From a virus (lineage: Duplodnaviria > Caudoviricetes), in IMG/VR virus record IMGVR_UViG_2700988815_000001, positions 1 to 64,000 of that record: DNA of 64,000 nucleotides; one strand, written 5' to 3'. Positions within the stretch are counted from its first letter, which is position 1; each line of letters starts with the position of its first letter. The notes beneath the pieces are model-generated. The model was given only the letters and a program-made list of their open reading frames with translations, did no database searches and was not told the DNA's origin. This document shows, piece by piece, positions 24,218 to 63,351 of this stretch. The position numbers were made by a program, and so were the translations under genes.

Positions 24218-24278
24218 ATAGTACCACACTTTTCCCAGTTGTCAAGACCTTGACGTGGGAGCAAACGTCTGGTAGTAT
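24218..24278. promoter_or_regulatory. Back-to-back divergent sigma70-like promoters
   Basis: Minus TTGACA-16-TACTAT; plus TTGACG-17-TAGTAT; joined by the GTCAAGACCTTGAC palindrome. Confidence 0.7.
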
Positions 24279-24290
24279 GGAAAAACTGAT

Positions 24291-24600
24291 GGAGAGATAT
24301 GTCTGCGAAAGCATCACTCACCGGCCATCAGGGAACACGACTATGAAGAGTTGCTACTTGGTCAAGCTGAAGTCTAATCTGTTTATAGCGTAGCGGTTAC
24401 GCCTTCGGGTGGAATGAACAGAGCCTGAGCGAAAGCTCTCCTGCCCATGCAGGCCAATCACGATCTCAAGCGTCATGAGAATGTGGAGAAGGTAGACTCA
24501 AGGTTACGTCTTAGGCAGATTCTTTCTGTATGGCGTTTCCTTGGGTTAAGTCTACCTTCCAATACGAAACTCAGCGTCATGAGCAGATCAAGAACAATAA
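24291..24600 (+). ncRNA. Candidate structured ncRNA, copy A (paralog of 59860-60130)
   Basis: Conserved blocks and compensatory stem changes relative to copy B. Confidence 0.7.
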
Positions 24601-24682
24601 CCAACACATACAACCACCTAAAACATTGATATATAAGGAGATTGTATGAAATAACCCCAAATAATATAAGGAATCCTTACCC

Positions 24683-24877
24683 ATGAGATGCAAGTGCTGC
24701 GATGTACCGCTGATCAATAATGATAGTCCCGCGTGGAATAAGCTCGCACAGAAAGAGGAAGACCTCTGTAGTGTGTGCAGAAATCTTGTATACAATTCAT
24801 ACACAGAACGAGAGTATTGCTGCGGACGGTATCCAGTTGACGGTGTTACTGGCCCTGTACCAATCAAAGAAAATTAA
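24683..24877 (+). CDS. Small Zn-finger-like protein
   Basis: CKCC...CSVC; AAGGA RBS. Confidence 0.65.
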   Translation: MRCKCCDVPLINNDSPAWNKLAQKEEDLCSVCRNLVYNSYTEREYCCGRYPVDGVTGPVPIKEN

Positions 24878-25357: not shown

Positions 25358-25434
25358 TGGACGTTGGCCGACCGGCGCGAGGCAACAGGCTTTTAACCTG
25401 TATTAACTGAGTTCGATTCTCAGGCGTTCAACCA
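25358..25434 (+). tRNA. tRNA-Lys(TTT)
   Basis: Cloverleaf; ACAGG-ctTTTaa-CCTGT; CCA. Confidence 0.9.
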
Positions 25435-25438
25435 ATAT

Positions 25439-25527
25439 AGAGAGTTACGCAGCTAGGTGGCTGCACTTGTTTGCTAAACAAAGTGATCGAGAAATCGGTT
25501 GGGGATCAAGACCTCAGCTCTCTGCCA
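25439..25527 (+). tRNA. tRNA-Ser(GCT)
   Basis: ttGCTaa loop; long variable arm; GCCA. Confidence 0.8.
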
Positions 25528-25641
25528 GAATGATCGTGTCGCTCACGATATGACAAACGACTACATCGTGAGGGTTCTGCGATGTTCTTGAGCCAGATGG
25601 CAATCGGGGTAAGAGTCCCCACAGGCAACCTCTAAATTTAT

Positions 25642-25731
25642 GGCGGGTAGTGATCATGGCGATCAAGCTGTTTAGAAAGCAGTACCATTGGCTAGTACCC
25701 GGTGAGAGTTCGATTCCCTTACCCGCCTCCA
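25642..25731 (+). tRNA. tRNA-Ser(AGA), atypical
   Basis: GCTGT-ttAGAaa-GCAGT; long variable region; TCCA. Confidence 0.65.
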
Positions 25732-25737
25732 ACACAA

Positions 25738-25814
25738 CGGCAGTTGAAGCAACTGGTAATCTTCGTCAGCTCAAACCTGATGTATTCTGAGTTCGAATCT
25801 CAGACTGCCGACCA
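25738..25814 (+). tRNA. tRNA-Leu(CAA), short variable loop
   Basis: GTCAG-ctCAAac-CTGAT; ACCA. Confidence 0.8.
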
Positions 25815-25820
25815 AGCAAA

Positions 25821-25894
25821 GCTTCTTTAGTTTAATGGTAGAACGCCATCCTTACACGGTGGCTGCGGTGGTTCGATTCCATCAAGAAGCACCA
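25821..25894 (+). tRNA. tRNA-Val(TAC)
   Basis: ctTACac loop; ACCA. Confidence 0.92.
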
Positions 25895-26040
25895 AACATC
25901 ATAAAGTAATCGCGTTAGGGTTCGATTCCCTCCCAAGCCTCGGTGGACACCTGAAAGGGTGTGGTTCACAAAACGGATGAAACGTGACTAGAGAGTTGAC
26001 AAAGGATGGCCATCTGGAGTAGACTCTCGGTACTAACAAT

Positions 26041-26117
26041 TGGGGATTAGAATAGATGGCCTAATTCATCGGTCTTTGACACCGACAGCACTGGTTCGAA
26101 TCCAGTATCCCCTGCCA
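26041..26117 (+). tRNA. tRNA-Gln(TTG)
   Basis: TCGGT-ctTTGac-ACCGA; GCCA. Confidence 0.92.
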
Positions 26118-26136
26118 AACACAATAGGAGTATCAA

Positions 26137-26697
26137 ATGATTTACCTACGCTTCCTAGCACTATTCACAGTTGACATTCTGCTGACGATCCTTACGGTTG
26201 TTCCAGCAGCAATCATTGTTCCACTCTTCACAAGAGCACAGCAATGGGGTCAGAAAGAGTACACATGGGGCTGGCTGTGGGGTACATACGACAATCCGCC
26301 ACAAGGTGATGAAGGGTACTGCCGCAAGCGTGCTCTCTTCCTGAACGAGCTTACGGGCTTCAAGGGCTATATCAACCGAGTGATGTGGATGTTGAGAAAC
26401 CCTCTGTATGGGCTTGCCAAACGAATGGCATTGCCTTATAGTGAGACAGCAACATTGGTGATCACAGGTAATCCTGATATCTCTGACAAGTATCGAATTC
26501 CCGGCAGCATGATGGCCCGTCTGTACGAAGGCAACAAGCTGGTCGGTTTTGAGTTCTACATGGTCAAGCCTTGGAGTGCGAATAGAAACATTCGTTGCCG
26601 ACTAGGCTGGAAGATGACCACAGAGAAATACAAAGAAAAGGGCTTTGCCCAATTCGTCGGTACGTGCAATCCATTCGATGGATACGGCGACGATTGA
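26137..26697 (+). CDS. Hypothetical membrane-associated protein inside the tRNA array
   Basis: AGGAG RBS; N-terminal TM helix; WMLRNPLYG motif. Confidence 0.85.
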   Translation: MIYLRFLALFTVDILLTILTVVPAAIIVPLFTRAQQWGQKEYTWGWLWGTYDNPPQGDEGYCRKRALFLNELTGFKGYINRVMWMLRNPLYGLAKRMALPYSETATLVITGNPDISDKYRIPGSMMARLYEGNKLVGFEFYMVKPWSANRNIRCRLGWKMTTEKYKEKGFAQFVGTCNPFDGYGDD

Positions 26698-26788
26698 CAG
26701 AACATACCGCGCCTTGGTATGATCACCAAACCAACTGGTGATGTGACGCTCAGGAGACAGCGTGTTATAAGTGTCTCCCACGAATTAT

Positions 26789-26865
26789 AGGGGTGAAGTG
26801 TAATGGCTATGCACGCGGGATTCCAAATCCTTGCAGACTGGGTTCGATTCCTAGCACGCCTGCCA
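26789..26865 (+). tRNA. tRNA-Trp(CCA)
   Basis: ttCCAaa loop; GCCA. Confidence 0.85.
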
Positions 26866-26870
26866 AATAT

Positions 26871-26951
26871 GGTGTTATTGGTGACAGTCTTCTAGAGGGC
26901 TGGTTGTTGTGATGATTCTAGAGCGGGCAACATTTGTGCTTGACACCGCCA
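26871..26951 (+). ncRNA. tRNA-like RNA (acceptor stem and CCA, non-canonical body)
   Basis: GGTGTTA/TGACACC-GCCA; no TTCG T-loop. Confidence 0.55.
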
Positions 26952-26958
26952 ATCAAAT

Positions 26959-27035
26959 GGCCTTATAGTGTAAGGGAATTAGCACATCATCCTTCTAAGT
27001 TGATAGATAAGGTTCGAATCCTTATAGGGCTACCA
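26959..27035 (+). tRNA. tRNA-Arg(TCT)
   Basis: ctTCTaa loop; ACCA. Confidence 0.9.
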
Positions 27036-27056
27036 GAAAATAAATTGAAATAGTTG

Positions 27057-27085
27057 TTGACAACTGACTAAAGTCATGGTTTAAT
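27057..27085 (+). promoter_or_regulatory. Internal promoter of the tRNA array
   Basis: TTGACA-17-TTTAAT. Confidence 0.6.
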
Positions 27086-27117
27086 ACTCATACAGTTTAA
27101 CAAAAGGAGAGAATGAA

Positions 27118-27246
27118 ATGGCACAGCGTCCATACGATGCAACAAAGGAACACGCTCCACTGGATCGTACTCCAAAGAATAAAGGTCGTCACCCTAACAA
27201 ACGGGTGAAGAATAGTAAGCACCCAGTGACTGGGAAAAGCTACTAA
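27118..27246 (+). CDS. Small basic protein (42 aa)
   Basis: AAGGAG RBS; MAQRPYDATKEHAPLDRTPKNKGRHPNKRVKNSKHPVTGKSY. Confidence 0.65.
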   Translation: MAQRPYDATKEHAPLDRTPKNKGRHPNKRVKNSKHPVTGKSY

Positions 27247-27254
27247 GAATTAAT

Positions 27255-27331
27255 GCTCTTGTCGTCTAAAGGTATAGGATGGCTGACTTTCAATCAGTTG
27301 ATGTTGGGTTCGAGTCCCACCAAGAGTACCA
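27255..27331 (+). tRNA. tRNA-Glu(TTC)
   Basis: ctTTCaa loop; ACCA. Confidence 0.9.
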
Positions 27332-27335
27332 ATAT

Positions 27336-27411
27336 GGCTTATGTTTCCTCTGGGAAGGAAGGCACACTGTCTATGTGTCAGTTGAGGGTTCGAATCCCTT
27401 ATAGGTCGCCA
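27336..27411 (+). tRNA. tRNA-Asp(GTC)
   Basis: ctGTCta loop; GCCA. Confidence 0.85.
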
Positions 27412-27471
27412 AGCGCAGTCGTCATCGCAGACTTAAAATGGGATCGTCTCGGGCACGTTATAGCTCCCAAT

Positions 27472-27546
27472 GCCCTTGTCATATAAAGGCTATTATGCCT
27501 GTTTTGTAATCAGGTTATTGCGGTTCGAATCCGTACTGGGGCACCA
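27472..27546 (+). tRNA. tRNA-Thr(TGT)
   Basis: ttTGTaa loop; ACCA. Confidence 0.88.
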
Positions 27547-27552
27547 AATTCT

Positions 27553-27627
27553 TGCCGGATAGTATAGTGGTCTGTACACTCGCCTGATAAGCGATAGGTG
27601 AAAGTTCGATTCTTTCTCTGGCAACCA
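27553..27627 (+). tRNA. tRNA-Ile(GAT)
   Basis: ctGATaa loop; ACCA. Confidence 0.9.
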
Positions 27628-27633
27628 AATGAT

Positions 27634-27711
27634 ATAGCTGTGGCCCGAACTGGACTAGGCACCATCCTACGAAGTTGGTAAATGCAGGTTCGAATCCTGT
27701 CAGCTATGCCA
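27634..27711 (+). tRNA. tRNA-Arg(ACG)
   Basis: ctACGaa loop; GCCA. Confidence 0.9.
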
Positions 27712-27717
27712 AACAAA

Positions 27718-27797
27718 TGCGAAGGCGTTAAGACGGCTGGAACTGTCACTCGGCTCATACCCGAATACAAGAGGTTCGATTCCTCCTTTCGCAACCA
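27718..27797 (+). tRNA. tRNA-Met(CAT)
   Basis: ctCATac loop; ACCA; Met versus Ile2 identity not resolved. Confidence 0.8.
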
Positions 27798-27866
27798 AAC
27801 GCTGGGTGCTCCCCACGTACAGCCAGATAGAGTGTGCTGTATAAATATAGTCTCTATCAGAACAAT

Positions 27867-27943
27867 TGGTAATAGTCTCCCACGGCGGGGGTCTGCGGCT
27901 GTTAACCGCAAGTTGCTTGGTTCGATTCCAAGATTACCAGCCA
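27867..27943 (+). tRNA. tRNA-Asn(GTT)
   Basis: TGCGG-ctGTTaa-CCGCA; GCCA. Confidence 0.85.
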
Positions 27944-27950
27944 ATTTAAT

Positions 27951-28036
27951 TCCGTGTGTAGGGGAACTGGTAGACCCACCTGACTGTTAATCAGGCGCTA
28001 ACGCAACTGTAGGTTCGAAGCCTACCACCGGAGCCA
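27951..28036 (+). tRNA. tRNA-Asn(GTT) second copy, long variable arm
   Basis: CCTGA-ctGTTaa-TCAGG; 13-nt variable region; GCCA. Confidence 0.8.
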
Positions 28037-28041
28037 AACAA

Positions 28042-28128
28042 GGTCGTTGTAGAGATAGATGGCTACTATCAGGGTGCTGTAACCACCCCGCTTCATGCTA
28101 GAGGTTCAATTCCATCCTTCGACCACCA
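28042..28128 (+). tRNA. tRNA-Tyr(GTA)
   Basis: GGGTG-ctGTAac-CACCC; ACCA. Confidence 0.8.
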
Positions 28129-28154
28129 ATTTACAAATGACCTAACAAGTCAAT

Positions 28155-28228
28155 CTCTCGGAAGCGTTACGGTAGCGTACTTTGTTTGGAACGAAGTGGC
28201 GGTGGTTCGACTCCACCCCGAGTGACCA
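28155..28228 (+). tRNA. tRNA-Pro(TGG)
   Basis: ttTGGaa loop; ACCA. Confidence 0.88.
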
Positions 28229-28371
28229 ATTTACTGAAAAGGATTGTGCAGATTTGGTAAGTCGCAATTCGTCCCAGCCACGAATATAACCTGATCGGTA
28301 TGCTAGTGGGAGAAAGACTACGTGCAGGAATGAAGTGATCGCACGGGTCAACTGGCAGTAGACGCGATTAT

Positions 28372-28445
28372 GGGCTGTAAGAATTATGATAGTTCGCTAC
28401 GCTTGCACCGTAGAAGCCGGGGTTTGACTCCCCGACGGTCCACCA
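28372..28445 (+). tRNA. tRNA-Ala(TGC)
   Basis: CTACG-ctTGCac-CGTAG; G3:U70; ACCA. Confidence 0.88.
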
Positions 28446-28461
28446 AATTATAGGAGACAAT

Positions 28462-28614
28462 ATGAAAGTCCGAGTTAAGCAACGTGCAAAACGATTCAGT
28501 AGTATGTCGTGCAGATGCTGTACCAGAATTCATTTCAAAGAGGAAGCTATTGACAAGCAAGCCCTCAAAGAAGCTCTTGAAGAAATCCACACTCAAGAAG
28601 AAGAGTGGGTTTAA
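28462..28614 (+). CDS. Small protein (50 aa) inside the tRNA array
   Basis: AGGAG RBS; MKVRVKQRAKRFSSMSCRCC...EEEWV. Confidence 0.65.
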   Translation: MKVRVKQRAKRFSSMSCRCCTRIHFKEEAIDKQALKEALEEIHTQEEEWV

Positions 28615-28623
28615 AGATTTAAT

Positions 28624-28698
28624 GGTGAGGCCGTTGTCACTGGCTGACACTTCCGGCTGTGACCCGGTTGTTGGAGTTCGAATCTCCACCTCACACCA
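28624..28698 (+). tRNA. tRNA-His(GTG)
   Basis: ctGTGac loop; ACCA. Confidence 0.8.
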
Positions 28699-28704
28699 AA
28701 CAAT

Positions 28705-28781
28705 GCTCCTGTAGGCCAACTGGTAGAGTCAGTGCGCTTAGAACGCATAAAGTCTCGGTTCGAATCCGAGTGGGAGTACCA
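28705..28781 (+). tRNA. tRNA-Leu(TAG), short variable loop
   Basis: GTGCG-ctTAGaa-CGCAT; ACCA. Confidence 0.9.
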
Positions 28782-28838
28782 AATGTAGCCGCAAGGCAAG
28801 TAGTCTGCTAGACCCGGACTTAATAATGGGTGACGAAT

Positions 28839-28913
28839 GTGTCTTTGTCCGAGCGGCTGAGGTAGCGGATTGCAAACCCGTTTAGGTTGGTTCAACTCCA
28901 ACAAGATACTCCA
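28839..28913 (+). tRNA. tRNA-Cys(GCA)
   Basis: ttGCAaa loop; U73; CCA. Confidence 0.88.
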
Positions 28914-28919
28914 AATTCT

Positions 28920-28995
28920 GCGTGATTCGTATAGAGGTCTAATACTCTCGGCTTCCACCCGAGGAACCACGGTTCGACTCCGTGATCCCGCACCA
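28920..28995 (+). tRNA. tRNA-Gly(TCC)
   Basis: CTCGG-ctTCCac-CCGAG; ACCA. Confidence 0.9.
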
Positions 28996-29000
28996 ATTAT

Positions 29001-29076
29001 GCACTCTAAGCTGACTCGGTAGTAGCGACGGCCTGAAAAGTCGTAGGACTTGGTTCGACTCCAAGAGATTGCACCA
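29001..29076 (+). tRNA. tRNA-Phe(GAA)
   Basis: ACGGC-ctGAAaa-GTCGT; ACCA. Confidence 0.9.
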
Positions 29077-30842: not shown

Positions 30843-32653
30843 TGACATTCTCTGTTCACGGTAGTGCAACTGGCGGATACGCTGTTGGCCCAGTAGAGAA
30901 TGCTTTCGAAGGTGTTGACCTTGCTGCTGCACAGGCAGCACGTGACGCATACTTCGCATCCAATCCAACTAAACTGGCTGCTTACGACAGCAATCCATTC
31001 TATCTAATCCGTCTAACATATGGTGCTACAACAAACGCTGAGTACCGTATGGGAGGCCAGTGGATCGACTACACACCTTTCCTACAAGGATTGCCGGGAG
31101 AAGTTGCTTCTCTGGCTAACGTGCCTGTAGGTGAGCTTCCATACAAAACACTTGATGGTACATTCGCAGGTTCTCGTATGCGTGTGTTGGATGATGGTTC
31201 TCTCCTAGCTCCACCGGGCTTTGGTGTTGAATCTGGTTCTGTTAAGTTTGGTGACGTACTGTTGCTATCTGAGGCTGCTGGATTCCTATCTATCAGCAAT
31301 TTGATTAATGAACGTCCATACACAATCCTTGACTACTACACACCACGTGATGCCGCCTCTGCCGTTCCAACAGCATTTATGGCTTCTGCACCAGCATTCG
31401 GCTTTGTGGCACAGCCTGATGACAGTGTTAACATGACAGATGAACCACTGTTGTTTGACTACACAATCCAGAACACTTCCCGCACTTACTCCCTGTTTAT
31501 GCGTGCATTTGCAGCAATGTCTAACGTCCGAATCAAGATTACCCAAATCTCTAACGGCGTTGCACTGAAGTATCTGCCATCTAAAGAAGCTTGGGAAACT
31601 GAGGAAGGTGGGCTTGAGTGGATTATTGGAGACAATACATTCGACTTTGGTGATACACCGCTTATCTTCAACACAGGACAAAACATCAGATTTGAAATCC
31701 GTGCCACAACTATGTCGTTGAAAGGTAACGCATCTGGCATTCCATACTTCGGAGGCTCTGACCAACTAGGTGAGTTCCGTGACGTGCTTATGGCTGACCA
31801 GTACACAGCAACTGACGTTAGAGACAAGCTGGCAACACTCACCGGCACCAACAGACTACCAATGAGCGCCATTAAAGATGGTGTTGTAAGTGTCGCTGGG
31901 CGCCTCGGTGCGATTGTACTGACAGCATCTGACGTAGCTGGACTGTCCACTGTTGCAACAACTGGGGCTTACTCTAGCCTGTCTGGTCTGCCGTTCATTC
32001 CTACAAACACAAGCCAGCTAACCAACGGAGCCAACTTCATCACTGCTGCTCAAGCTCCAGTGCAAAGTGTCCAAGGTTACACTGGTGCTGTTGTTCTCGC
32101 AAGGTCGGATATTGGACTTGGAAACGTAGACAACACGTCTGACATTAACAAACCAACGTCTACAGCACAACAAACATCCATCGACGTGAAGATGTCTCAG
32201 CACAACGCTGCTGTTGATCCTCACCCACAATACACAACTGTTGCCGAAGCTTCTGCTGCGGCTCCAATCCAGAGTATTGTTAACGGTAGAGGTATTACCG
32301 CATCGACTCTTACTGGTGTAACAACCGTAGGATCGACTGAGTTCCCTCTTGTGTTCAATGGTTCTGGTGCTGCTTCTTCACCAAAGATTTGGTATGGAAC
32401 TGCAACGTCCGATGTAAACGGAGTGTTCATTGTTGATATCTCTTCCGCTGGATTTACGCTAGCTCCAACTGTCACTGTGTCTGCTACCCTTACAACAGTG
32501 ACTCTAACTGACAGAGCATGGGCAACACTCGCTTCTGTAACTGCAACAACCGCATCTGGTTACACCCTACGAGGCATCAACCTATCGGGTAACGGGGCAA
32601 CCGTAAGGCTAGCTCCAAACACAACAGTCAATATCATGGCTATCGGTATTTAA
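30842..32653 (+). CDS. Fibre-like virion protein outside the tail module
   Basis: VxSVxGxxGAVVL repeats, GLGNVDNTSD and DPHPQY fibre motifs. Confidence 0.75.
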   Translation: MTFSVHGSATGGYAVGPVENAFEGVDLAAAQAARDAYFASNPTKLAAYDSNPFYLIRLTYGATTNAEYRMGGQWIDYTPFLQGLPGEVASLANVPVGELPYKTLDGTFAGSRMRVLDDGSLLAPPGFGVESGSVKFGDVLLLSEAAGFLSISNLINERPYTILDYYTPRDAASAVPTAFMASAPAFGFVAQPDDSVNMTDEPLLFDYTIQNTSRTYSLFMRAFAAMSNVRIKITQISNGVALKYLPSKEAWETEEGGLEWIIGDNTFDFGDTPLIFNTGQNIRFEIRATTMSLKGNASGIPYFGGSDQLGEFRDVLMADQYTATDVRDKLATLTGTNRLPMSAIKDGVVSVAGRLGAIVLTASDVAGLSTVATTGAYSSLSGLPFIPTNTSQLTNGANFITAAQAPVQSVQGYTGAVVLARSDIGLGNVDNTSDINKPTSTAQQTSIDVKMSQHNAAVDPHPQYTTVAEASAAAPIQSIVNGRGITASTLTGVTTVGSTEFPLVFNGSGAASSPKIWYGTATSDVNGVFIVDISSAGFTLAPTVTVSATLTTVTLTDRAWATLASVTATTASGYTLRGINLSGNGATVRLAPNTTVNIMAIGI

Positions 32654-48826: not shown

Positions 48827-49584
48827 TTGCACAAGATTTTATGGATATCATCCGAACACAGTTCAGGATTGACATGGCTGATATTCACACAGCCATTCCA
48901 TGTAAGGTGGTTCACGTACACCAGAACATGGAACAACAGAAGGTGGACGTTATCCCGTCCGTCAACACACTACTTAAAGATGGAACTGGCGAAGAGGGTA
49001 TGCAGATTCTTGGTGTACCAATTATCTTCCCCGGTTCTGCCAACACACTTATGAGCTTCCCAATCAATCCGGGTGACACTGTTTGGGTTATGTTCTCTGA
49101 ACGATCTATGGACAACTTCAAGATCGGTTCTGGCGAACCAACTACAGCTAACGACTACAGAAAGTTTTCTGACCAAGACGCTGTGGCTATCCCCGGTTTG
49201 TTCCCATTCGGTAAGAGTATCAACACACCACAAGTAAGAAAGTTTGCCCATGAGCCAAACAGAGACTTGTGCATTGCACACAACATTGCTTCTGGCACTG
49301 AGGTGAATATCCTGCTGAAACAGAATGGTGACTTGATTATCAACACTGAGTCGGCTGTAACTGTGAACTGTAAGACTGGTGTGATTAACGCCACGGAGTC
49401 TTACACTATCAACACTCCAACGATGAACATCAATGCCAACACCACAAACTGGACAGGCAATATCATCCACACTGGTAACTACACAATGACAGGACAAGCC
49501 ACATTCAATGGTGTGCTGTTCGACACTCACTTCCACTCTGGCGTTACGCCGGGTTCTGGAAACTCTGGCCCAGTTGCTGGCTAA
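48823..49584 (+). CDS. Baseplate central spike (gpV/gp138-like)
   Basis: OB fold plus beta-helix; C-terminal THFHSG (HxH). Confidence 0.9.
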   Translation: MIAQDFMDIIRTQFRIDMADIHTAIPCKVVHVHQNMEQQKVDVIPSVNTLLKDGTGEEGMQILGVPIIFPGSANTLMSFPINPGDTVWVMFSERSMDNFKIGSGEPTTANDYRKFSDQDAVAIPGLFPFGKSINTPQVRKFAHEPNRDLCIAHNIASGTEVNILLKQNGDLIINTESAVTVNCKTGVINATESYTINTPTMNINANTTNWTGNIIHTGNYTMTGQATFNGVLFDTHFHSGVTPGSGNSGPVAG

Positions 49585-57915: not shown

Positions 57916-58198
57916 CGATATGGTGAAGGCTGTACTCAATTATGTAGCAGGGGCATTGCTCATGGTATGTGTTGGTGTAGTTGGCTACCAACAATCTCAA
58001 ATTAATAAACTAGACGACCGACTGTACACGCTACAAGCGACAACAGTTACTGAGGATAAGCTTAATTCGGCTATCAACAGATTGTCTTCTGAAATGGATA
58101 CTAAGATCACAAGTCTACGTAGTGAGCAACAAATCACTAACAAGTATCTGGAACGTGTAATGGACAAGCTTGAGGATCGTAAATCTAAAGCTGATTAA
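57899..58198 (+). CDS. Single-TM coiled-coil protein (holin/antiholin candidate)
   Basis: TM helix plus coiled coil in the lysis cassette. Confidence 0.7.
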   Translation: MATATNDMVKAVLNYVAGALLMVCVGVVGYQQSQINKLDDRLYTLQATTVTEDKLNSAINRLSSEMDTKITSLRSEQQITNKYLERVMDKLEDRKSKAD

Positions 58199-58213
58199 GA
58201 GAAGGTATATGAC

Positions 58214-58540
58214 ATGACAAGGAAAACAGACTGGCCTCTAATTACTGCCGTTGGAAGTCTTCTGGCAGCTCTCCTTGTTTGCATTTGTCTACTGGCCTTC
58301 CCCGCATATAATAATAAAACAGGTCAACTAGAGTTAGAAGTAGCCAAACAAGACTACCAGAGACAACTCTCGGCTATTGACAGGAAGTACGAGTCAAAGA
58401 TTAACAACTTGCAGGAACAACTCAGTGCGTTGCAGTTTATCAGCAACAAGAAAACTGACCTGCTAGATGACGACGTAAAAAGGAATAGACGTGAAATTGA
58501 TGACCTTAGAGAAAGAGTAAAGCCCCGCTCACGTGGTTAG
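58214..58540 (+). CDS. Single-TM coiled-coil protein
   Basis: TM helix plus coiled coil. Confidence 0.7.
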   Translation: MTRKTDWPLITAVGSLLAALLVCICLLAFPAYNNKTGQLELEVAKQDYQRQLSAIDRKYESKINNLQEQLSALQFISNKKTDLLDDDVKRNRREIDDLRERVKPRSRG

Positions 58541-58557
58541 TGGCGGGGTTTTTGTTT
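58519..58557. terminator. Bidirectional terminator at the convergence point
   Basis: AAAGCCCCGC...GCGGGGTTTTT. Confidence 0.75.
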
Positions 58558-58566
58558 GCCTGCGAT

Positions 58567-58755
58567 TTAACGCCAGCGTTCTACAGTGGTCTTCACGTTG
58601 CAAACTGGACAATGGATACGATAGATTGTATCACCGCAACCAGTATAGTCACGCACATACTCTTCATCAATGTCAGCATAGTGATACTCAAGCACGCTAC
58701 CGCAGTTACGGCAAGTGCAACGCTTACCGGGCGCACGTTGGACAACCTCAACCAT
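58567..58755 (-). CDS. Zn-ribbon protein
   Basis: CRNC...CPVC. Confidence 0.75.
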   Translation of the reverse strand: MVEVVQRAPGKRCTCRNCGSVLEYHYADIDEEYVRDYTGCGDTIYRIHCPVCNVKTTVERWR

Positions 58756-58891
58756 TGGCGTGTACCAGACGATTGAAGACAGCTCGACAGTGGCTGCACT
58801 CCACACGTGCGGTATACGTCAGCGAGAGTTCAATCAGCTTACCAGACTTACAACGAGTGCAAGTGGTGTTCAACAGGTCTTTCAAAATCAT
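58748..58891 (-). CDS. Zn-ribbon protein (47 aa)
   Basis: Hand translation MILKDLLNTTCTRC...CSHC; GGAGG RBS. Confidence 0.65.
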   Translation of the reverse strand: MILKDLLNTTCTRCKSGKLIELSLTYTARVECSHCRAVFNRLVHANG

Positions 58892-58910
58892 AATGGATTT
58901 CCTCCAGTCG

Positions 58911-58937
58911 AAAAGAAGCCCCCGTTAACGGGGGCTT
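58911..58937 (-). terminator. Intrinsic terminator
   Basis: AAGCCCCCG-ttaa-CGGGGGCTT-CTTTT. Confidence 0.85.
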
Positions 58938-58944
58938 GTAATTG

Positions 58945-59298
58945 TTAACCGCGAGCGGACAGAGCAGCCATCAGCTTCATCAAGAGCATTTCCTCTGGGG
59001 TAGCGTTCTTCATGAATGCTTCTGTGATCTTCTCTTGGTCAGAAACCAGATTAGAAGTCACTTGACGGATGGCAGCTAGGCCACGATCAACTTCGAATGT
59101 GTCGCCCTTCTGAGATTGCTCTGCGGTGATGCTTACAGCTTTGTCAACCATTTCAGTGACAGCCATCACTTCGGCCAGCGATTTTGCCAGATCACCAACC
59201 AGAGTTGCCAGTTGTTCATCTTGAACATCCAGCTCGTTCAGACGGTCAGAAACAGCGAGGCCAGCGAGAACAGCAGTAGCGATAGTAACTTTAGACAT
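58945..59298 (-). CDS. Hypothetical helical protein
   Basis: AAGGAG RBS; upstream promoter-like TTGACA-16-TAGACT. Confidence 0.8.
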   Translation of the reverse strand: MSKVTIATAVLAGLAVSDRLNELDVQDEQLATLVGDLAKSLAEVMAVTEMVDKAVSITAEQSQKGDTFEVDRGLAAIRQVTSNLVSDQEKITEAFMKNATPEEMLLMKLMAALSARG

Positions 59299-59363
59299 TT
59301 TTGAATCTCCTTTGTTGTGTTTGATGTGGTGAAGTCTACAGCATTTCAGAACCTTGTCAACAA

Positions 59364-59756
59364 CTATTTTGTATTCATTCCGCCGTACACGATTGGGATG
59401 CCTCCGCTGATGCGTGTACGTTGCACATAAGACGTGAACCGCTCAGAACGACTCTGCCTTGCATTGATACCGCCAACTGTTGTGGGAGCAAGCCTGATCG
59501 GGTTCATGCCACGATCTTGCAGACAGCTACGTGTCACTTGACGGAATGGAAGCTCCAGTCCCTTGAACTGTTTGAGGCAGTTGGAACACTCAATCTTGCC
59601 AGTGTTCAGGCTGACGGTCTTTAGCGTGCATGCACATGTACGGCAGCCAAGCTTACCCTTGAAGTGGCGGATCGCAATACGTTCCTTCTTCTTGAGCTTG
59701 CACACAGCTCCAACGTCCAGTGTAGGCAGTGCATCTATATAGGCTTGATCGTACAT
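59364..59756 (-). CDS. Zn-binding basic hypothetical protein
   Basis: CRTC...CSNC. Confidence 0.75.
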   Translation of the reverse strand: MYDQAYIDALPTLDVGAVCKLKKKERIAIRHFKGKLGCRTCACTLKTVSLNTGKIECSNCLKQFKGLELPFRQVTRSCLQDRGMNPIRLAPTTVGGINARQSRSERFTSYVQRTRISGGIPIVYGGMNTK

Positions 59757-59786
59757 CGTGGTGTCCTCGTTTGTTTGTGTTGGCTC

Positions 59787-59846
59787 ATCTTATACGAAAA
59801 CTGAATCGAGTCAAGCCCTTGACAGCAGATTTATTCATGATACCAT
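59787..59846. promoter_or_regulatory. Back-to-back divergent sigma70-like promoters
   Basis: Minus TTGACT-16-TAAGAT; plus TTGACA-16-TACCAT; GTCAAGCCCTTGAC palindrome. Confidence 0.7.
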
Positions 59847-59859
59847 TCGTCACGTCGTA

Positions 59860-60130
59860 GGGGAGATATGTCGAACACACTCACCGACCTACGGGAACAC
59901 GCCCTATGAAGAGGAAGCCACAGGGGCAGGTGAACTTGAACTGGATTATACCGTGGCGGCGACCTCTTAGGAGGGAATGATCTGGGCCTGTGACTGATGA
60001 ACTCAGCAGCACATGAAAGGTAGAGTAGAGGTTGATCGAGGCAGGTAGTTCCTGTATGATCAGCCTTGGGACAACTTTACCTGATCTCTCCGAATCTAGC
60101 AGCACAGTGAAGATCAAAAGCATAACAGCA
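59860..60130 (+). ncRNA. Candidate structured ncRNA, copy B (paralog of 24291-24600)
   Basis: Conserved blocks and covarying stems relative to copy A. Confidence 0.7.
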
Positions 60131-60165
60131 ACAACATCTAGATCAAAAGCTTATAAGGAGGTGGT

Positions 60166-60474
60166 ATGTGTATTGTAGTGAACAAATACAAAGTGAATAT
60201 GGATGATCCTGATATTGTGTACATAGGTCGCGGGAGCAAATGGGGTAATCCGTACAGCCACAAAGACGGAACTCGGGCACAATACCGTGTGTCAACCGTT
60301 CATCAGGCGATTATGGAATATCGCAAGTACCTTTGGTCGCAAATCTCTGATGGGTTTATCACACTGGAAATGCTGAAAGAGCTTGACGGAAAACGCCTCG
60401 CCTGTTATTGTACTCCCAATCCCTGTCATGGGAACATTATCAAACAAGCAGTCCAATGGGCTAAGGGGCAATGA
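60166..60474 (+). CDS. DUF4326-family protein
   Basis: VYIGRGSKWGNPY and LACYC.P..CHG motifs. Confidence 0.88.
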   Translation: MCIVVNKYKVNMDDPDIVYIGRGSKWGNPYSHKDGTRAQYRVSTVHQAIMEYRKYLWSQISDGFITLEMLKELDGKRLACYCTPNPCHGNIIKQAVQWAKGQ

Positions 60475-61103
60475 TGAGTCGTGTAGTAATTCTTGGTGGC
60501 GGTACATTCAATCATGTGGCTTGCCATCTGGCGTTGGCCGCTCCAGCCTTTGGTGGGACAGCCAAGCAACTCAACAAGATGTTCGCTGATAACGGCACGC
60601 TTGAGCCTTACCTCGCCCTGACGAAGATGGCAGACCCTGCCAGTCATATGATCACTAACGATCACGTTGCTCATTTCATTGAGCTGGCCCTTGGGGACGA
60701 AGACGTTAAGGCCATCATCATGAACGCAGCCATCTGTGATTTTGAAATGGATAACCCCAGCGAGGCTTCTCGCCTGTCCAGTTCTCAGGACTATCAGGTG
60801 ACGCTGCGAGGGATCAACACTAAGATCATGGCTTCCATCAAACAGAAGCGTCCAGATATCATCGTGGCTGGCTTCAAGACCACACACGGTGCAAGCAAGG
60901 TCGAGCAGGTGGCTAAAGCCTTCTCATCTATGCACAACTCGGGGCTTGACATGGTGTTGGCAAATGATGTAGAGACACGAAACAATATCCTTGTTACAAA
61001 GGATTTGACAATACAGACTGGCAGCCGTGAGTTTCTGCTTGACCAGTTGATGTGTACTACTGTAATCTACTACAACATGAAGCAATGGAATCTTGAAGAA
61101 TGA
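60471..61103 (+). CDS. CoaB-like (phosphopantothenate-cysteine ligase/DFP domain) protein
   Basis: GGGT, IMNAAICDF, VAGFK and VLAND motifs. Confidence 0.75.
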   Translation: MMSRVVILGGGTFNHVACHLALAAPAFGGTAKQLNKMFADNGTLEPYLALTKMADPASHMITNDHVAHFIELALGDEDVKAIIMNAAICDFEMDNPSEASRLSSSQDYQVTLRGINTKIMASIKQKRPDIIVAGFKTTHGASKVEQVAKAFSSMHNSGLDMVLANDVETRNNILVTKDLTIQTGSREFLLDQLMCTTVIYYNMKQWNLEE

Positions 61104-61315
61104 CTCACTGGCTGATCAAGACCGAGCACGGATACATGCTTGAGGATGCAGACGGACGGTTGATTGAATGGTTTGACATGGCATGCAACTCTAAGGCATA
61201 CTGCATGGAAGCCGGGATTACCCCGGTATATTTGACACAGAAGTGCCGACTGGCAGATCGTCAGGCATACAATGCCTACACAGGCAAAACATTATGGTGG
61301 GAGAACGAACAATGA
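61100..61315 (+). CDS. Hypothetical protein
   Basis: ATGA coupling. Confidence 0.65.
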   Translation: MTHWLIKTEHGYMLEDADGRLIEWFDMACNSKAYCMEAGITPVYLTQKCRLADRQAYNAYTGKTLWWENEQ

Positions 61316-61545
61316 CGCATGAAATGCACGCTCTGTTTATGCAGTATCCAGAGGCAATGGAAGAGCTTCAATACCAGATCGCGCGTAATGGTTTGGAGTA
61401 CGCTGACAGTTTCCGAATGGCGTTCTTTGATGACGATGCACAGGTTGAAGCCTACGATGATGCTGTCACCTGCTGTGGGAGTTTCGACACCACCATGAAG
61501 ATCAACGGAAAGCGCGTTCTCATTGGCTGCAACTACGGACACTGA
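61312..61545 (+). CDS. Hypothetical protein
   Basis: CCGSFD...IGCNYGH motif. Confidence 0.7.
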   Translation: MTHEMHALFMQYPEAMEELQYQIARNGLEYADSFRMAFFDDDAQVEAYDDAVTCCGSFDTTMKINGKRVLIGCNYGH

Positions 61546-61546
61546 T

Positions 61547-61762
61547 ATGAAGTTTATTGTTGGGCTTGGGTTGTGTACTGTTGCTATGTTTGGTAGTATC
61601 TTTATGGTGCAGGCTAACCACTTCGATGATCAGAAAATGGCTTGCAAGAGAGCTGATGGTCGTGGTAGCCTAGTTGTCAGTCGAGCAACAGGAATTCCAA
61701 TTGGATATGAGTGTATGAGAATGCACTTGGTACTTAAATACAGAAATGGAGAATACAGATGA
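61547..61762 (+). CDS. Membrane-anchored hypothetical protein
   Basis: N-terminal TM helix. Confidence 0.6.
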   Translation: MKFIVGLGLCTVAMFGSIFMVQANHFDDQKMACKRADGRGSLVVSRATGIPIGYECMRMHLVLKYRNGEYR

Positions 61763-61953
61763 ACAGAGAATTGGCTCATGCTTTCTCGCAACTGCGGGTT
61801 AGCCAACGTACTACTGTGCTGCAAGATATCAATTTGAATCTCCATCAAGCGAAGGAAGAGAGCAACAACGACTTCATGAAACGTTGCTTGGAAAAGATTG
61901 CATGTGCAGGGTTGATTCGTGAGCTGGAAGCTGCTATGCTGAGGTTTCAGTGA
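61759..61953 (+). CDS. Hypothetical protein
   Basis: Coupled ORF. Confidence 0.65.
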   Translation: MNRELAHAFSQLRVSQRTTVLQDINLNLHQAKEESNNDFMKRCLEKIACAGLIRELEAAMLRFQ

Positions 61954-62270
61954 GCGGCTGGGAACGTCAAGAGTTTTATGGCCATGATCCAAAGATTGTG
62001 GCGTTTGACTTTGATGAGACAATCAGCGATAATGAGCCGCTGTGGCTTCAAGTGATGCTTGCTCTGGAGAAGGGTGGCTACCATGTGATTGTCTGTACGT
62101 GGAGGACACCAACAACTTATCCAGAAGATTTGAAATTTCTTGTTGACAGGGGATTTAAAGTGTACTACACTTCCGGTCAAGCAAAACAAGATTACATGGC
62201 TAAGCAAGGAATCAGGGTAAACATTTGGGTTGATGACAATCCATTTGCAATCCTAAATAATGCAAAATAA
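61950..62270 (+). CDS. Minimal HAD-family phosphatase
   Basis: AFDFDETI, T.R, K and WVDDNP motifs. Confidence 0.85.
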   Translation: MSGWERQEFYGHDPKIVAFDFDETISDNEPLWLQVMLALEKGGYHVIVCTWRTPTTYPEDLKFLVDRGFKVYYTSGQAKQDYMAKQGIRVNIWVDDNPFAILNNAK

Positions 62271-62273
62271 GAG

Positions 62274-62301
62274 TTGACAGACTTCAAAAGTCTGCTACAA
62301 T
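62274..62301 (+). promoter_or_regulatory. Sigma70-like promoter with a 7-bp inverted repeat in the spacer
   Basis: TTGACA-16-TACAAT with extended TG; CAGACTT-caa-AAGTCTG. Confidence 0.75.
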
Positions 62302-62330
62302 GACCAAATCAAATATCAAAGGAGAAAGAT

Positions 62331-62948: not shown

Positions 62949-62955
62949 TGTTTTA

Positions 62956-63246
62956 TTCATGCTGCGACGAATTGCCTAAATTCTCGTGACCCTTTCCTCT
63001 GGGGTATATCAGGGGAGCCTATTATAGAATGGTATTCTAACCAATCACGCCAACCAATTCTCTGGCGAGAACTAGCATTGACAACGCTTAAAGTTCAAAT
63101 AGGAAAGCTGAAAAGCTTAAAGGTCAACTACTAACCTTTTAAAATTTGAAACAATACAGCTAAAAGCTTCTCCAAACCTTGGGATTACGTTGAGACGTAT
63201 AACGAGACGGACGCTGGCAATGCACCCGAGCTGTCGTTAGCATGAA
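62956..63246 (+). ncRNA. Candidate ~290-nt structured RNA with an A-rich heptad-repeat core
   Basis: Three nested long-range helices, several local hairpins, about 13 AAAGYT-like units. Confidence 0.75.
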
Positions 63247-63254
63247 AACCAATT

Positions 63255-63283
63255 AAGCCCTGCCCTCACCGGCGGGGCTTTTT
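63255..63283 (+). terminator. Intrinsic terminator
   Basis: AAGCCCTGCC...GGCGGGGCTT-TTT. Confidence 0.85.
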
Positions 63284-63295
63284 CACATCTAGGGG

Positions 63296-63323
63296 TTGAC
63301 AAGGGGTTAGAATGGTGTAGAAT
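63296..63323 (+). promoter_or_regulatory. Sigma70-like promoter
   Basis: TTGACA-16-TAGAAT followed by GGCCCACAT, as at 13040. Confidence 0.75.
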
Positions 63324-63351
63324 GGCCCACATACCAGACAGGAGATACACA

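What the first reader, a model, noticed from the sequence alone, without database searches (positions are those of the whole stretch)
24291..24600. Structured ncRNA copy A: ~300-nt element with a diverged paralog 35 kb away
Seen: shares ordered blocks with 59860-60130: GAGATATGTC, CACTCACCG, GGGAACACG, TATGAAGAG, TGAA, TTATA, GGAATGA, GCCTG, AAGGTAGA, AGGCAG, CTGTATG, CCTTGGG, TACCT, AGATCAA. The sequences between blocks differ but keep pairing. GCTAC 24353-57 / GTAGC 24390-94 becomes GCCAC/GTGGC in B. TCTGTT 24378-83 / AACAGA 24417-22 becomes CTGGAT/ATCTGG, and this helix crosses the previous one, i.e. a pseudoknot. GAAGGTAGAC 24488-97 / GTCTACCTTC 24550-59 becomes AGGTAGAGT/ACTTTACCT. GCAGA/TCTGT becomes GCAGG/CCTGT. 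It starts ~12 nt after a sigma70-like -10 box. Inference: conserved joining nucleotides plus a pseudoknot suggest a tertiary-folded RNA such as a ribozyme, protein-decoy RNA, replication primer RNA or antitermination leader.
Basis: partly seen in the sequence, partly recalled or inferred. Interest (0 to 1): 0.88.

Follow-up and report, generated by a model that had tools for sequence, protein, structure and literature searches.

The report
Uncatalogued twin-hairpin phage leader RNA
Two diverged copies of a roughly 300-base, intricately folded RNA that no database lists sit at the very start of this Pseudomonas phage's two long rightward gene blocks, and their job is still unknown.

Summary
A (about 24286-24584) and B (about 59855-60106) are the only two copies in this 98-kb Otagovirus-like Pseudomonas phage. 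Each starts 7-9 nt after a sigma70-like -10 box, in a gap between divergent gene blocks.

Relatives from phage and metagenome contigs show strong compensatory change. Rfam 15 has no match, and the papers I searched do not describe it.

Two features stand out.
- A 9-16-nt sequence occurs twice in each RNA, flanking the long hairpin. It is identical within an RNA but differs between RNAs. I found no complementary partner.
- A 4-nt segment after P5 matches part of the hairpin's 3' strand and co-varies with it, so two helices exclude each other.

My best reading is a cis-acting two-state leader RNA that binds an unknown factor. That mechanism is inferred, and no transcript data exist for this phage. 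This scan has found the same family before on other phage genomes.

The parts
24250..24278 (+). Promoter-like site of copy A: -35 TTGACG 24250-55, 17-nt spacer, -10 TAGTAT 24273-78. It lies back to back with a leftward site (TTGACA...TACTAT, 24245 down to 24218).
   Evidence: consensus scan; 9 of 12 and 10 of 12 matches; sequence. 29 of 61 unique family members have such a site ending 13-18 nt before GAGAUAUGUC. Predicted, not mapped.
24286..24331 (+). P1 (CUGAUGG 24286-92 / CCAUCAG 24325-31). It encloses the near-invariant strands GAGAUAUGUC 24294-24303 and CACUCACCG 24315-23, and the small hairpin P2 (UGC-GAAA-GCA 24304-13).
   Evidence: P1 has 98.0% of cells paired, all 7 pairs show changes on both sides, with up to 5 pair types per position. 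The 19 motif bases were fixed by my search pattern. Copies found with the model instead show GAGAAAUGUC and CCCUCACCG.
24339..24422 (+). Pseudoknotted core. P3 is 24339-42 / 24360-63. P4 is 24353-57 / 24390-94 and crosses both P3 and P5. P5 is 24378-83 / 24417-22. P6 is the hairpin 24400-03 / 24408-11. Conserved joiners are UAUGAAGAG, CUGA and GGAAUGA.
   Evidence: cells paired are P3 86.3%, P4 75.1%, P5 92.0%, P6 78.3%. Pairs with changes on both sides are 3 of 4, 5 of 5, 6 of 6 and 3 of 4.
24423..24426 (+). Segment X (GCCU). It has the same sequence class as X' (ACCU 24554-57) and is complementary to AGGU 24490-93 in the 5' strand of P9, so it is a candidate competing helix.
   Evidence: 92.7% of 96 cells pair (shuffles 84.7 +/- 1.7, 0 of 500; slid partners 28-54%). 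Pair types are UA 14 / CG 8 at one position and UA 16 / CG 3 at another; 14 of 16 distant members share 4 nt or more between X and X'.
24428..24453 (+). Variable hairpins P7 (GAGC-GAAA-GCUC 24428-39) and P8 (CCUGC-CCA-GCAGG 24441-53). Both are absent from copy B.
   Evidence: Alignments (CCUGC/GCAGG becomes CCAGC/GCUGG or CCUGU/ACAGG in relatives). Not counted formally.
24465..24479 (+). Twin hairpin R1 (CUCA-AGCGUCA-UGAG). The repeat core AGCGUCAUGAG is 24469-79.
   Evidence: The stem counts are weak (67.8% paired) because loop lengths differ and the alignment slips.
24488..24559 (+). Long hairpin H. P9 is 24488-97 / 24550-59. P10 is 24499-503 / 24539-43. P10b is 24506-10 / 24532-36. P11 is 24515-19 / 24525-29. 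It has a conserved internal loop CUUAGG / UAUGG.
   Evidence: (25 sequences): P9 has 95.5% paired with 7 of 10 pairs changed on both sides. P11 has 98.4% with 3 of 5. P10 and P10b together have 76.7%.
24570..24583 (+). Twin hairpin R2 (CUCA-GCGUCA-UGAG). The repeat core AGCGUCAUGAG is 24573-83.
   Evidence: stem 71.7% paired.
24585..24654 (+). A+C-rich, G-poor linker (24585-24632), then the Shine-Dalgarno site AAGGAG 24635-40 and a two-codon mini-ORF AUG AAA UAA 24646-54. The first annotated gene is at 24683-24877.
   Evidence: 2 G, 12 C and 22 A in the 40 nt after R2, and 0-2 G in the A-type relatives. for the gene.
59819..59846 (+). Promoter-like site of copy B: TTGACA 59819-24, 16-nt spacer, TACCAT 59841-46. 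It lies back to back with a leftward site (59814 down to 59787).
   Evidence: 10 of 12 and 9 of 12 matches.
59855..60110 (+). Copy B. P1 is 59855-61 / 59888-94. GAGAUAUGUC is 59863-72 and CACUCACCG is 59878-86. X (GCCU) is 59986-89. R1 core AGCAGCACA is 60005-13. P9 is 60018-26 / 60074-82, with X' (ACCU) at 60079-82. R2 core is 60098-106. The Shine-Dalgarno site is 60155-61 and the ATG of a DUF4326 gene is at 60166.
   Evidence: model hit 59853-59990, 104.4 bits; DUF4326, E = 5e-21.

Best explanation
SHOWN OR WELL SUPPORTED (about 0.9). A and B are two paralogous copies of an uncatalogued structured RNA family of about 260-300 nt. Each copy sits 7-9 nt downstream of a sigma70-like -10 box, in the rightward arm of a back-to-back promoter pair. 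Helix P1 would therefore sequester the very 5' end of the transcript.

Copy A heads the block holding the tRNA array and the virion and packaging genes. Copy B heads the replication block.

The fold has two parts. The first is a pseudoknotted 5' domain (P1-P6, three mutually crossing helices, near-invariant joiners). The second is a 3' domain in which a long hairpin (P9-P11) is flanked by two hairpins carrying the same sequence.

INFERRED (about 0.45-0.5). The RNA acts in cis as a two-state leader.
- The 5' strand of P9 can pair either with its 3' strand (X') or with the identical-class segment X next to P5.
- Pairing with X would stack the 3' domain onto the 5' domain and free the downstream module.
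- Which state forms is set by an unknown factor. This is probably a protein, possibly dimeric, that reads the twin hairpins, or a ligand of the 5' domain.
- That choice tunes what happens on the unstructured A/C-rich linker and ribosome site that follow: ribosome, Hfq or Rho access, or RNA stability.

The factor, the signal and the output are all unknown.
For: POSITION
- Both copies lie in gaps of about 450 nt between divergent gene blocks.
- Promoter-like sites are at 24250-78 and 59819-46.
- 29 of 61 unique family members have a sigma70-like site at the same distance.

FOLD
- 5' domain: 85.6% of cells paired against 56.9% in shuffles, and 27 of 29 pairs changed on both sides.
- P9 is 95.5% paired and P11 98.4%.
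- Fold z-scores are -2.24 and -2.53.

COPY NUMBER
- There are exactly two copies in this genome.
- Four of 5 complete relatives have two copies on one strand, 32-36 kb apart; the fifth has one.

TWIN REPEAT
- 40 of 61 unique elements carry an exact direct repeat of 9 nt or more, 68-120 nt apart (median 99). Shuffled controls reach this in 11 of 305 cases.
- 19 of 61 reach 11 nt or more, against 0 of 305 shuffles. There are 39 distinct cores.
- Close relatives differ at the same position in both copies: AGCGUCA, AGUGUCA, AGCUUCA.

COMPETING HELIX
- X pairs with the P9 5' strand in 92.7% of 96 cells (0 of 500 shuffles reach it; slid partners 28-54%).
- 14 of 16 distant members keep X equal to X' over 4 nt or more, against 88 of 240 cross-pairs.
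- Forcing X onto the P9 5' strand costs about 6 kcal/mol in A and 4 in B in the isolated 3' domain.

LEADER CHARACTER
- The fold is followed by an A-rich linker (44% A over 55 members). The linker is G-poor in A-type copies.
- A Shine-Dalgarno site and unrelated first genes follow.
Against: - No transcript data exist for this phage. The RNA-labelled runs found are short metagenome contigs that cannot show a start, an end or a strand.
- The competing helix is only 4 bp, so it could be a folding intermediate or a chance by-product of a purine-rich strand. The sequences are related, and the shuffle control does not correct for that.
- No classical expression platform was found. There is no terminator-like site between leader and first gene, and I did not test whether the ribosome site is sequestered.
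- No ligand or protein partner is identified. The neighbouring genes have no known family, except DUF4326.
- Further strong promoter-like sites follow within 0.3-1 kb (24892; 60383, 61173). The leaders are therefore not the only drivers of the blocks they head.
Confidence: 0.5

Rival explanations
1. A trans-acting stable non-coding RNA. The structured 5' part is cut from or outlives the mRNA and works as a decoy, sponge or scaffold. Its twin hairpins bind two copies of a host or phage protein, or a repeated target.
For: The 5' end is buried in P1, and the fold is compact, with GNRA loops and (by my recall) a receptor-like CUUAGG/UAUGG internal loop. The first genes downstream are unrelated between A and B and among relatives, so the RNA is not tied to one gene. 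In Pakpunavirus-like genomes all four hairpins of both copies share the core AUCUGCAU, as expected for one common partner.
Against: No terminator or obvious processing site follows R2. The element is always followed in the same orientation by a linker and a ribosome site. No RNA data show a discrete species of about 300 nt.
Confidence: 0.2
2. A put-like processive antiterminator. The nascent RNA binds the RNA polymerase that made it and carries it through pauses and terminators across the 35-38-kb blocks.
For: Two similar copies each lie directly behind an early-type promoter, as for HK022 putL and putR (PMC9378689, Introduction read). Each heads a very long one-directional gene block. Copy A is followed by a tRNA array full of stable hairpins.
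Against: The put RNAs are about 70 nt with two stem-loops. This RNA is about 300 nt with at least 11 helices. HK022 early genes are preceded by terminators. Here the first plus-strand terminator-like sites lie at 25449 and 61981, terminator-like sites are not enriched downstream of B (5 found, 5.4 expected), and many further promoter-like sites follow. The idea explains neither the twin repeat nor the competing helix.
Confidence: 0.15
3. A passive 5' stabiliser. The base-paired 5' end and compact fold only protect the transcript from 5'-end-dependent decay, in a phage group reported to trigger mass mRNA degradation.
For: P1 starts 1-2 nt from the predicted start. Relatives PAK_P3 and PAK_P4 are reported to degrade about 90% of host non-ribosomal mRNA (PMC5563952, abstract passage).
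Against: A simple 5' hairpin would be enough for this. It does not account for about 30 near-invariant unpaired nucleotides, three crossing helices, co-evolving twin repeats, or the presence of the leader on only two of many promoters.
Confidence: 0.1
4. A DNA-level element, for example an origin with iteron-like direct repeats or paired operator sites around an inverted repeat, with the RNA fold incidental.
For: The direct repeats of 9-16 bp are identical within a locus and variable between loci, and they flank an inverted repeat. That layout resembles iterons or operators. The position is at divergent promoters.
Against: G-U pairs are kept on the plus strand only. Compensatory changes run through at least 9 helices, including crossing ones, which has no DNA-level reason. 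The repeat spacing of 68-120 bp keeps no helical phase.
Confidence: 0.03

Closest known systems
HK022 putL / putR RNAs (cis-acting antitermination; PMC9378689)
   Same: Two diverged copies per phage genome. Each is made from an early-type host-polymerase promoter at the head of a long transcription unit, and no dedicated protein gene is attached.
   Different: The put RNAs are about 70 nt with two stem-loops and sit ahead of terminators. This RNA is about 300 nt, pseudoknotted, and has twin repeats and a competing helix. No terminator-like site follows it closely.
Riboswitch and attenuator leaders (two-state 5' leaders)
   Same: The position at the 5' end of an mRNA. A conserved pseudoknotted domain with near-invariant joining nucleotides. 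A segment that can pair with two alternative partners.
   Different: No Rfam riboswitch model matches, even at E up to 10. There is no terminator or demonstrated ribosome-site-masking helix. The downstream genes are unrelated and not metabolic. The twin co-evolving hairpins have no riboswitch counterpart that I know of.
Orphan large structured RNAs of bacteria and phages (GOLLD, ROOL and similar; named from my own knowledge)
   Same: Large, ornate, covariation-supported RNAs of unknown function that often occur in phage genomes near tRNA genes. Copy A sits just upstream of a 15-gene tRNA array.
   Different: There is no match to any Rfam 15 model. This RNA is smaller (about 300 nt), is always promoter-proximal and in leader position, and occurs twice per genome.
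5'UTR-derived ncRNA candidates of Pseudomonas phages from ONT-cappable-seq (10.1101/2023.10.13.562163)
   Same: Short structured RNA species starting at phage promoters in 5' leaders, conserved within a genus. One is in PAK_P3, a phage with a similar genome layout (passages read).
   Different: The PAK_P3 candidate (31147-31308) lies over an annotated gene ahead of the primase gene. My model finds no copy of this family anywhere in PAK_P3. That paper's supplementary tables were not available to me.

Membership tests
Any Rfam 15 family | Covariance-model score at or above the family's gathering score | tested here: not met
   only 15 tRNA hits in the whole window; at E up to 10 only chance-level matches (best 15.4 bits against a gathering score of 72).
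HK022 put RNA | About 70 nt, two stem-loops | tested here: not met
   The element is about 260-300 nt with at least 11 helices, three of them crossing. The put features come from PMC9378689, Introduction.
HK022 put RNA | Two similar copies, each downstream of an early promoter | tested here: met
   Two copies, each 7-9 nt after a sigma70-like -10 box. The promoters are predicted, not mapped.
HK022 put RNA | Followed by terminators that must be read through | tested here: inconclusive
   There is no terminator-like site between leader and first genes. The first plus-strand sites are at 25449 and 61981, and there is no enrichment downstream of B (5 found, 5.4 expected). Rho-dependent sites cannot be scanned with these tools.
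HK022 put RNA | Binds the beta' zinc-binding domain of RNA polymerase and suppresses pausing and termination | not testable with these tools
   Needs biochemistry.
Riboswitch / attenuator-type leader | Conserved structured sensor domain in a 5' leader | tested here: met
   There are 31 invariant columns in alignment A3, of which 19 were fixed by my search pattern. Leader position.
Riboswitch / attenuator-type leader | Mutually exclusive helices | tested here: inconclusive
   X against X' for the P9 5' strand: 92.7% paired, 0 of 500 shuffles; 14 of 16. It is only 4 bp, and the relatedness of the sequences is not controlled.
Riboswitch / attenuator-type leader | Expression platform (terminator or ribosome-site-masking helix) | tested here: not met
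   No terminator-like site follows either copy. Masking of the ribosome site was not examined.
Riboswitch / attenuator-type leader | Specific ligand | not testable with these tools
   Needs in-line probing or binding assays.

The most novel reading that the evidence does not exclude
The twin sequences are a programmable recognition element. The conserved fold is a scaffold that presents the same 9-16-nt variable sequence twice, so as to pair with, or be read by, a nucleic acid or protein outside the phage genome (host or competing phage). Each phage lineage retunes both copies together. This would be a new class of phage RNA, with a guide-like specificity module coupled to a two-state switch.
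Probability: 0.12. Interest if true: 0.9.

Novelty: new variant of a known kind. Interest (0 to 1): 0.72.

Why it matters
The family is widespread. The B query finds 171 cultured phage records (170 Pseudomonas, 1 Pectobacterium) and the A query 53. Relatives also occur in many freshwater, soil, marine and wastewater contigs. It is present in P. aeruginosa phages of the therapy-relevant Pakpunavirus type and in kiwifruit-canker biocontrol phages, yet it is unannotated, or overlaid by 'hypothetical protein' calls, in the records.

It sits at the two control points of the genome, at the head of the virion/tRNA block and the head of the replication block. It is therefore likely to matter for the timing or level of most phage gene expression.

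The co-evolving twin sequence and the competing helix give concrete, cheap mutational tests. An RNA of about 300 nt with three crossing helices is also a good structural target. If the twin loops prove to be a specificity module, that would be a new principle of phage regulation.

Tried and rejected
- Rfam. Gathering thresholds on the whole window and E up to 10 on both loci gave nothing.

- PAK_P3. The exact motif pattern and the covariance model both found nothing in the 88,097-base record. The published PAK_P3 5'UTR RNA and sRNA1/2 are therefore not this family.

- Literature. Searches found no description. I read matched passages only of PMC4933390, PMC5563952 and 10.1101/2023.10.13.562163. 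I read the outline and Introduction of PMC9378689. Supplementary tables, which may list start sites, were closed.

- RNA evidence. The look-up of sequencing runs gave 5 metagenome runs, with a best share of 0.39 of the sampled words. Laying 4 of them gave only contigs of 143-236 nt. One marine run on record as RNA covers 24290-24327 and 24438-24590. Contigs cannot show transcription, strand or ends, so I draw no conclusion from them.

- Partner of the twin repeat.
  - No reverse complement of the A or B core of 8 nt or more near the elements in the window.
  - No perfect 11-mer complement in the whole genome.
  - No 8-mer complement at a recurring offset in the fetched loci.
  - A third forward copy of an 8-mer in only 11 of 64 elements, and never at a recurring offset.
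  - No excess pairing with the 250 nt downstream: 38 elements, mean z = 0.16, and 2 with 5 or fewer of 100 shuffles as good.
  - Host genomes could not be searched.

- Single-sequence duplex searches of R against its own RNA gave different places in each RNA.

- RNAalifold on the distant subfamily's 3' domain predicted only P7 and parts of P9/P10, and nothing for R.

- Divergent neighbour genes as paralogous partners. The result was 19% identity over 59 residues, E = 0.004 for a single comparison, which is not convincing. They have no Pfam family, and only PHROGs families of unknown function.

- Coding. An open frame from the R1 ATG to the R2 ATG exists in one Pakpunavirus-like relative (seen by eye in the alignment). 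In copy A the frame stops after 6 codons and the repeat spacing is 104 nt. I rejected this.

- Archaeal and other MAG hits of the motif pattern. 21 of 24 genome-contig hits, and 64 of 151 hits in all, lack P1 pairing and the downstream GAAGA. They are chance matches. From a uniform-composition estimate of my own I would expect tens of such matches in 596 Gb.
Full report
OBSERVATION

The two helices it called a pseudoknot (24353-57 with 24390-94, and 24378-83 with 24417-22) do cross.

The similarity of A and B is not chance. The B query matches phage REC1 at 48955-49074 with E = 2e-11, inside the place where the A query matches REC1 (48865-49342). An nhmmer profile and a covariance model each find exactly these two places in the whole genome. 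Both copies were in the training sets, so the real information there is that no third copy exists.

CONTEXT

The window is the first 64 kb of a 98,287-base phage record with direct terminal repeats. It is 99-100% identical over these loci to Pseudomonas syringae pv. actinidiae phages phiPsa300 and phiPsa267, genus Otagovirus.

In the phiPsa300 annotation, genes at 0.6-24.2 kb run leftward. Copy A lies in the following gap of about 500 nt. It heads a rightward block with small genes, the tRNA array (15 Rfam tRNA hits at 25358-29073), tail fibre, terminase, capsid and tail genes, running up to about 59 kb.

Four small leftward genes follow. Copy B then lies in a gap of about 400 nt and heads a rightward block with primase/helicase, DNA polymerase, exonuclease and ribonucleotide reductase genes, running to the right end.

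Each copy is preceded by a sigma70-like site. For A this is TTGACG-17-TAGTAT at 24250-78. For B it is TTGACA-16-TACCAT at 59819-46. Each site lies back to back with a leftward one. Helix P1 begins 7-9 nt after the -10 box, so the predicted 5' end is base-paired.

These are consensus matches, not mapped starts. Many further promoter-like sites follow, especially after B (22 found in 58-64 kb against 7.3 +/- 2.8 expected).

FAMILY

A two-block motif pattern returned:
- 38 loci from IMG/VR;
- 85 stretches from metagenomes;
- 24 from species-representative genomes.

Of 151 matches in all, including the window and phiPsa300, 87 also have a P1 helix of 5 bp or more and the downstream GAAGA. The remaining 64 are chance hits, and they include all archaeal MAG hits and 21 of 24 genome hits. 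After removing duplicates and truncated cases, 61-64 distinct elements remain.

Among cultured phages, the A query finds 53 records and the B query 171. All are Pseudomonas phages except one Pectobacterium phage, and the hosts include P. aeruginosa, P. syringae, P. fluorescens, P. putida and P. protegens.

The model finds two copies, on one strand and 32-36 kb apart, in 4 of 5 complete relatives, and one copy in the fifth and most divergent. It finds none in PAK_P3, genus Nankokuvirus.

STRUCTURE

On 51 sequences of the 5' domain (48 distinct), 85.6% of 1281 pair cells are standard pairs. Shuffles give 56.9 +/- 0.9 (0 of 500 reach the observed value) and slid partners give 31-46%. 27 of 29 pairs show changes on both sides.

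| Helix | Cells paired |
|---|---|
| P1 | 98.0% |
| P5 | 92.0% |
| P3 | 86.3% |
| P6 | 78.3% |
| P4 (pseudoknot helix) | 75.1% |

The P4 figure is lowered by misalignment of the distant subgroup. P4 crosses both P3 and P5.

On 25 Pseudomonas-type sequences of the 3' domain, P9 is 95.5% paired (7 of 10 pairs changed on both sides) and P11 is 98.4% paired. P10 and P10b together are 76.7% paired. Single-sequence folds give z = -2.24 for A and -2.53 for B.

The strands GAGAUAUGUC and CACUCACCG were fixed by my search pattern. Second copies found with the model instead show only GAGAAAUGUC and CCCUCACCG, so they are nearly invariant in their own right.

The conserved internal loop CUUAGG/UAUGG in the long hairpin resembles the classical 11-nt GAAA-tetraloop receptor, and P2 and P7 of copy A carry GAAA loops. 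That resemblance comes from memory and I did not test it.

TWIN REPEAT

In copy A, AGCGUCAUGAG occurs at 24469-79 and 24573-83. In copy B, AGCAGCACA occurs at 60005-13 and 60098-106. In both copies the two occurrences flank the long hairpin.

Across 61 unique elements:
- 40 have an exact direct repeat of 9 nt or more in the equivalent place, and 19 have 11 nt or more;
- the spacing is 68-120 nt, with a median of 99;
- mononucleotide shuffles of the same regions reach 9 nt in 11 of 305 cases and never reach 11 nt;
- there are 39 different cores.

Close relatives differ at the same position in both copies (AGCGUCA, AGUGUCA, AGCUUCA; and AAAGGUU against CAAGUU). The two copies therefore evolve together.

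In the Pseudomonas-type RNAs each copy can form a small hairpin (CUCA...UGAG). In the distant subgroup the repeat is longer, mostly unpaired, and preceded by GGCUCC in the first copy and UCACC in the second.

In two Pakpunavirus-like genomes the A-type and B-type RNAs share the core AUCUGCAU. One of them has a third copy made by a small tandem duplication.

I found no complementary partner, as set out under the tests below.

COMPETING HELIX

I believe this point has not been noted before. The four nucleotides after P5 (X; GCCU at 24423-26 in A and at 59986-89 in B) have the same sequence class as four nucleotides of the P9 3' strand (X'; ACCU at 24554-57 and 60079-82). They change with X' across relatives: GCCU/ACCU, GUCC/AUCC, AUCU/AUCU, GUCC/GUCC.

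X can therefore pair with AGGU of the P9 5' strand. 92.7% of 96 cells pair, against 84.7 +/- 1.7 in shuffles (0 of 500) and 28-54% with slid partners.

In the distant subgroup the segment after P7 equals the end of the P9 3' strand over 4 nt or more in 14 of 16 sequences. The same holds for 88 of 240 cross-comparisons.

In copy B, which lacks P7 and P8, X and X' are each followed after a spacer of about 15 nt by the repeat core. The 3' domain thus reads as two copies of a module of about 30 nt on either side of the hairpin's 5' strand.

Forcing X onto the P9 5' strand costs about 6 kcal/mol in A and 4 in B in the isolated 3' domain. Tertiary contacts or a bound factor could pay that cost.

The helix is short and the sequences are related, so this is a candidate switch and not a shown one.

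TESTS OF FUNCTION

- Rfam has no match.
- The put comparison meets the copy-number and position criteria but fails on size and architecture, and no terminator-like site follows closely.
- The partner searches for the repeat were all negative.
  - No 8-mer complement near the elements.
  - No perfect 11-mer complement in the whole genome.
  - No recurring offset in the loci.
  - A third forward 8-mer in only 11 of 64 elements, never at a recurring offset.
  - No excess pairing with the 250 nt downstream: mean z = 0.16, and 2 of 38 at 0.05 or below.
- Host genomes could not be searched.
- The neighbouring genes give no lead.
- No usable RNA data were found.

INTERPRETATION

I rate a real, conserved, pseudoknotted RNA at the 5' end of two transcription units at about 0.9.

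A cis-acting two-state leader is my best mechanism, at about 0.5. In it, a factor bound to the twin hairpins or to the 5' domain chooses between the two helices, and so affects the A/C-rich linker and ribosome site.

| Rival | Confidence |
|---|---|
| Trans-acting decoy or scaffold RNA | 0.2 |
| put-like antiterminator | 0.15 |
| Passive 5' stabiliser | 0.1 |
| DNA-level element | 0.03 |

COMPARISON AND NOVELTY

The closest known system by position and copy number is HK022 putL/putR. By logic the closest are riboswitch-type leaders. By kind of object the closest are the orphan large structured RNAs of phages. This RNA is a member of none of them.

The family is absent from Rfam 15 and from the papers my searches reached.

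This scan has met the same family several times before on other phage genomes. Those notes agree on the fold and on the unexplained twin sequence. I add the family-wide counts, the negative partner searches and the competing helix.

Noticed in passing
window 24218-24278 and 59787-59846: Both copies lie behind back-to-back promoter-like sites whose -35 boxes are 4 bp apart on opposite strands (GTCAAGACCTTGAC and GTCAAGCCCTTGAC). These are the only two divergent junctions in the window.
   Followed up: partly
window 24635-24654: A strong Shine-Dalgarno site (AAGGAG) is followed after 5 nt by a two-codon ORF, AUG AAA UAA, 28 nt ahead of the first annotated gene (24683). Copy B instead runs straight into a DUF4326 gene.
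   Followed up: no
window 24585-24632: The linker after the fold is A/C-rich and almost free of G (2 G in the 40 nt after R2; 0-2 G in A-type relatives). It contains AAGAACAAUAA, which fits the AAnAAnAA pattern I recall for Hfq/Crc sites in Pseudomonas. It would also suit Rho loading.
   Followed up: partly
window 24510-24515 and 24529-24533: The conserved internal loop CUUAGG / UAUGG in the long hairpin resembles the 11-nt GAAA-tetraloop receptor (by my recall). P2 and P7 of copy A have GAAA loops. Copy B has a degenerate version of the loop and no GAAA hairpins.
   Followed up: no
window 58000-64000: Sigma70-like promoter matches are strongly enriched after copy B (22 found, 7.3 +/- 2.8 expected). 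This suggests many early promoters in the first kilobases of the replication block.
   Followed up: no
L160 (G001:C1:24346-27479), B-type copy: A small tandem duplication gives three copies of the repeat core AUCUGCAU in one RNA. The A-type RNA of the same genome carries the same core.
   Followed up: partly
L005, L025 and relatives, just upstream of the element: In the distant (non-Pseudomonas-type) subgroup no sigma70-like site precedes the element. In L025 (seen) a terminator-like hairpin with a U-run lies about 10 nt upstream instead. Transcription there may start from another promoter type, or the RNA may be processed.
   Followed up: no
window 59863-59870 with 60085-60092: In copy B's minimum-energy fold, GGGGAGAU of the near-invariant 5' motif pairs with AUCUCUCC in the linker before R2. 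Copy A has AUCUC before R1. A long-range contact is possible but cannot be tested by covariation, because both sides are conserved.
   Followed up: no
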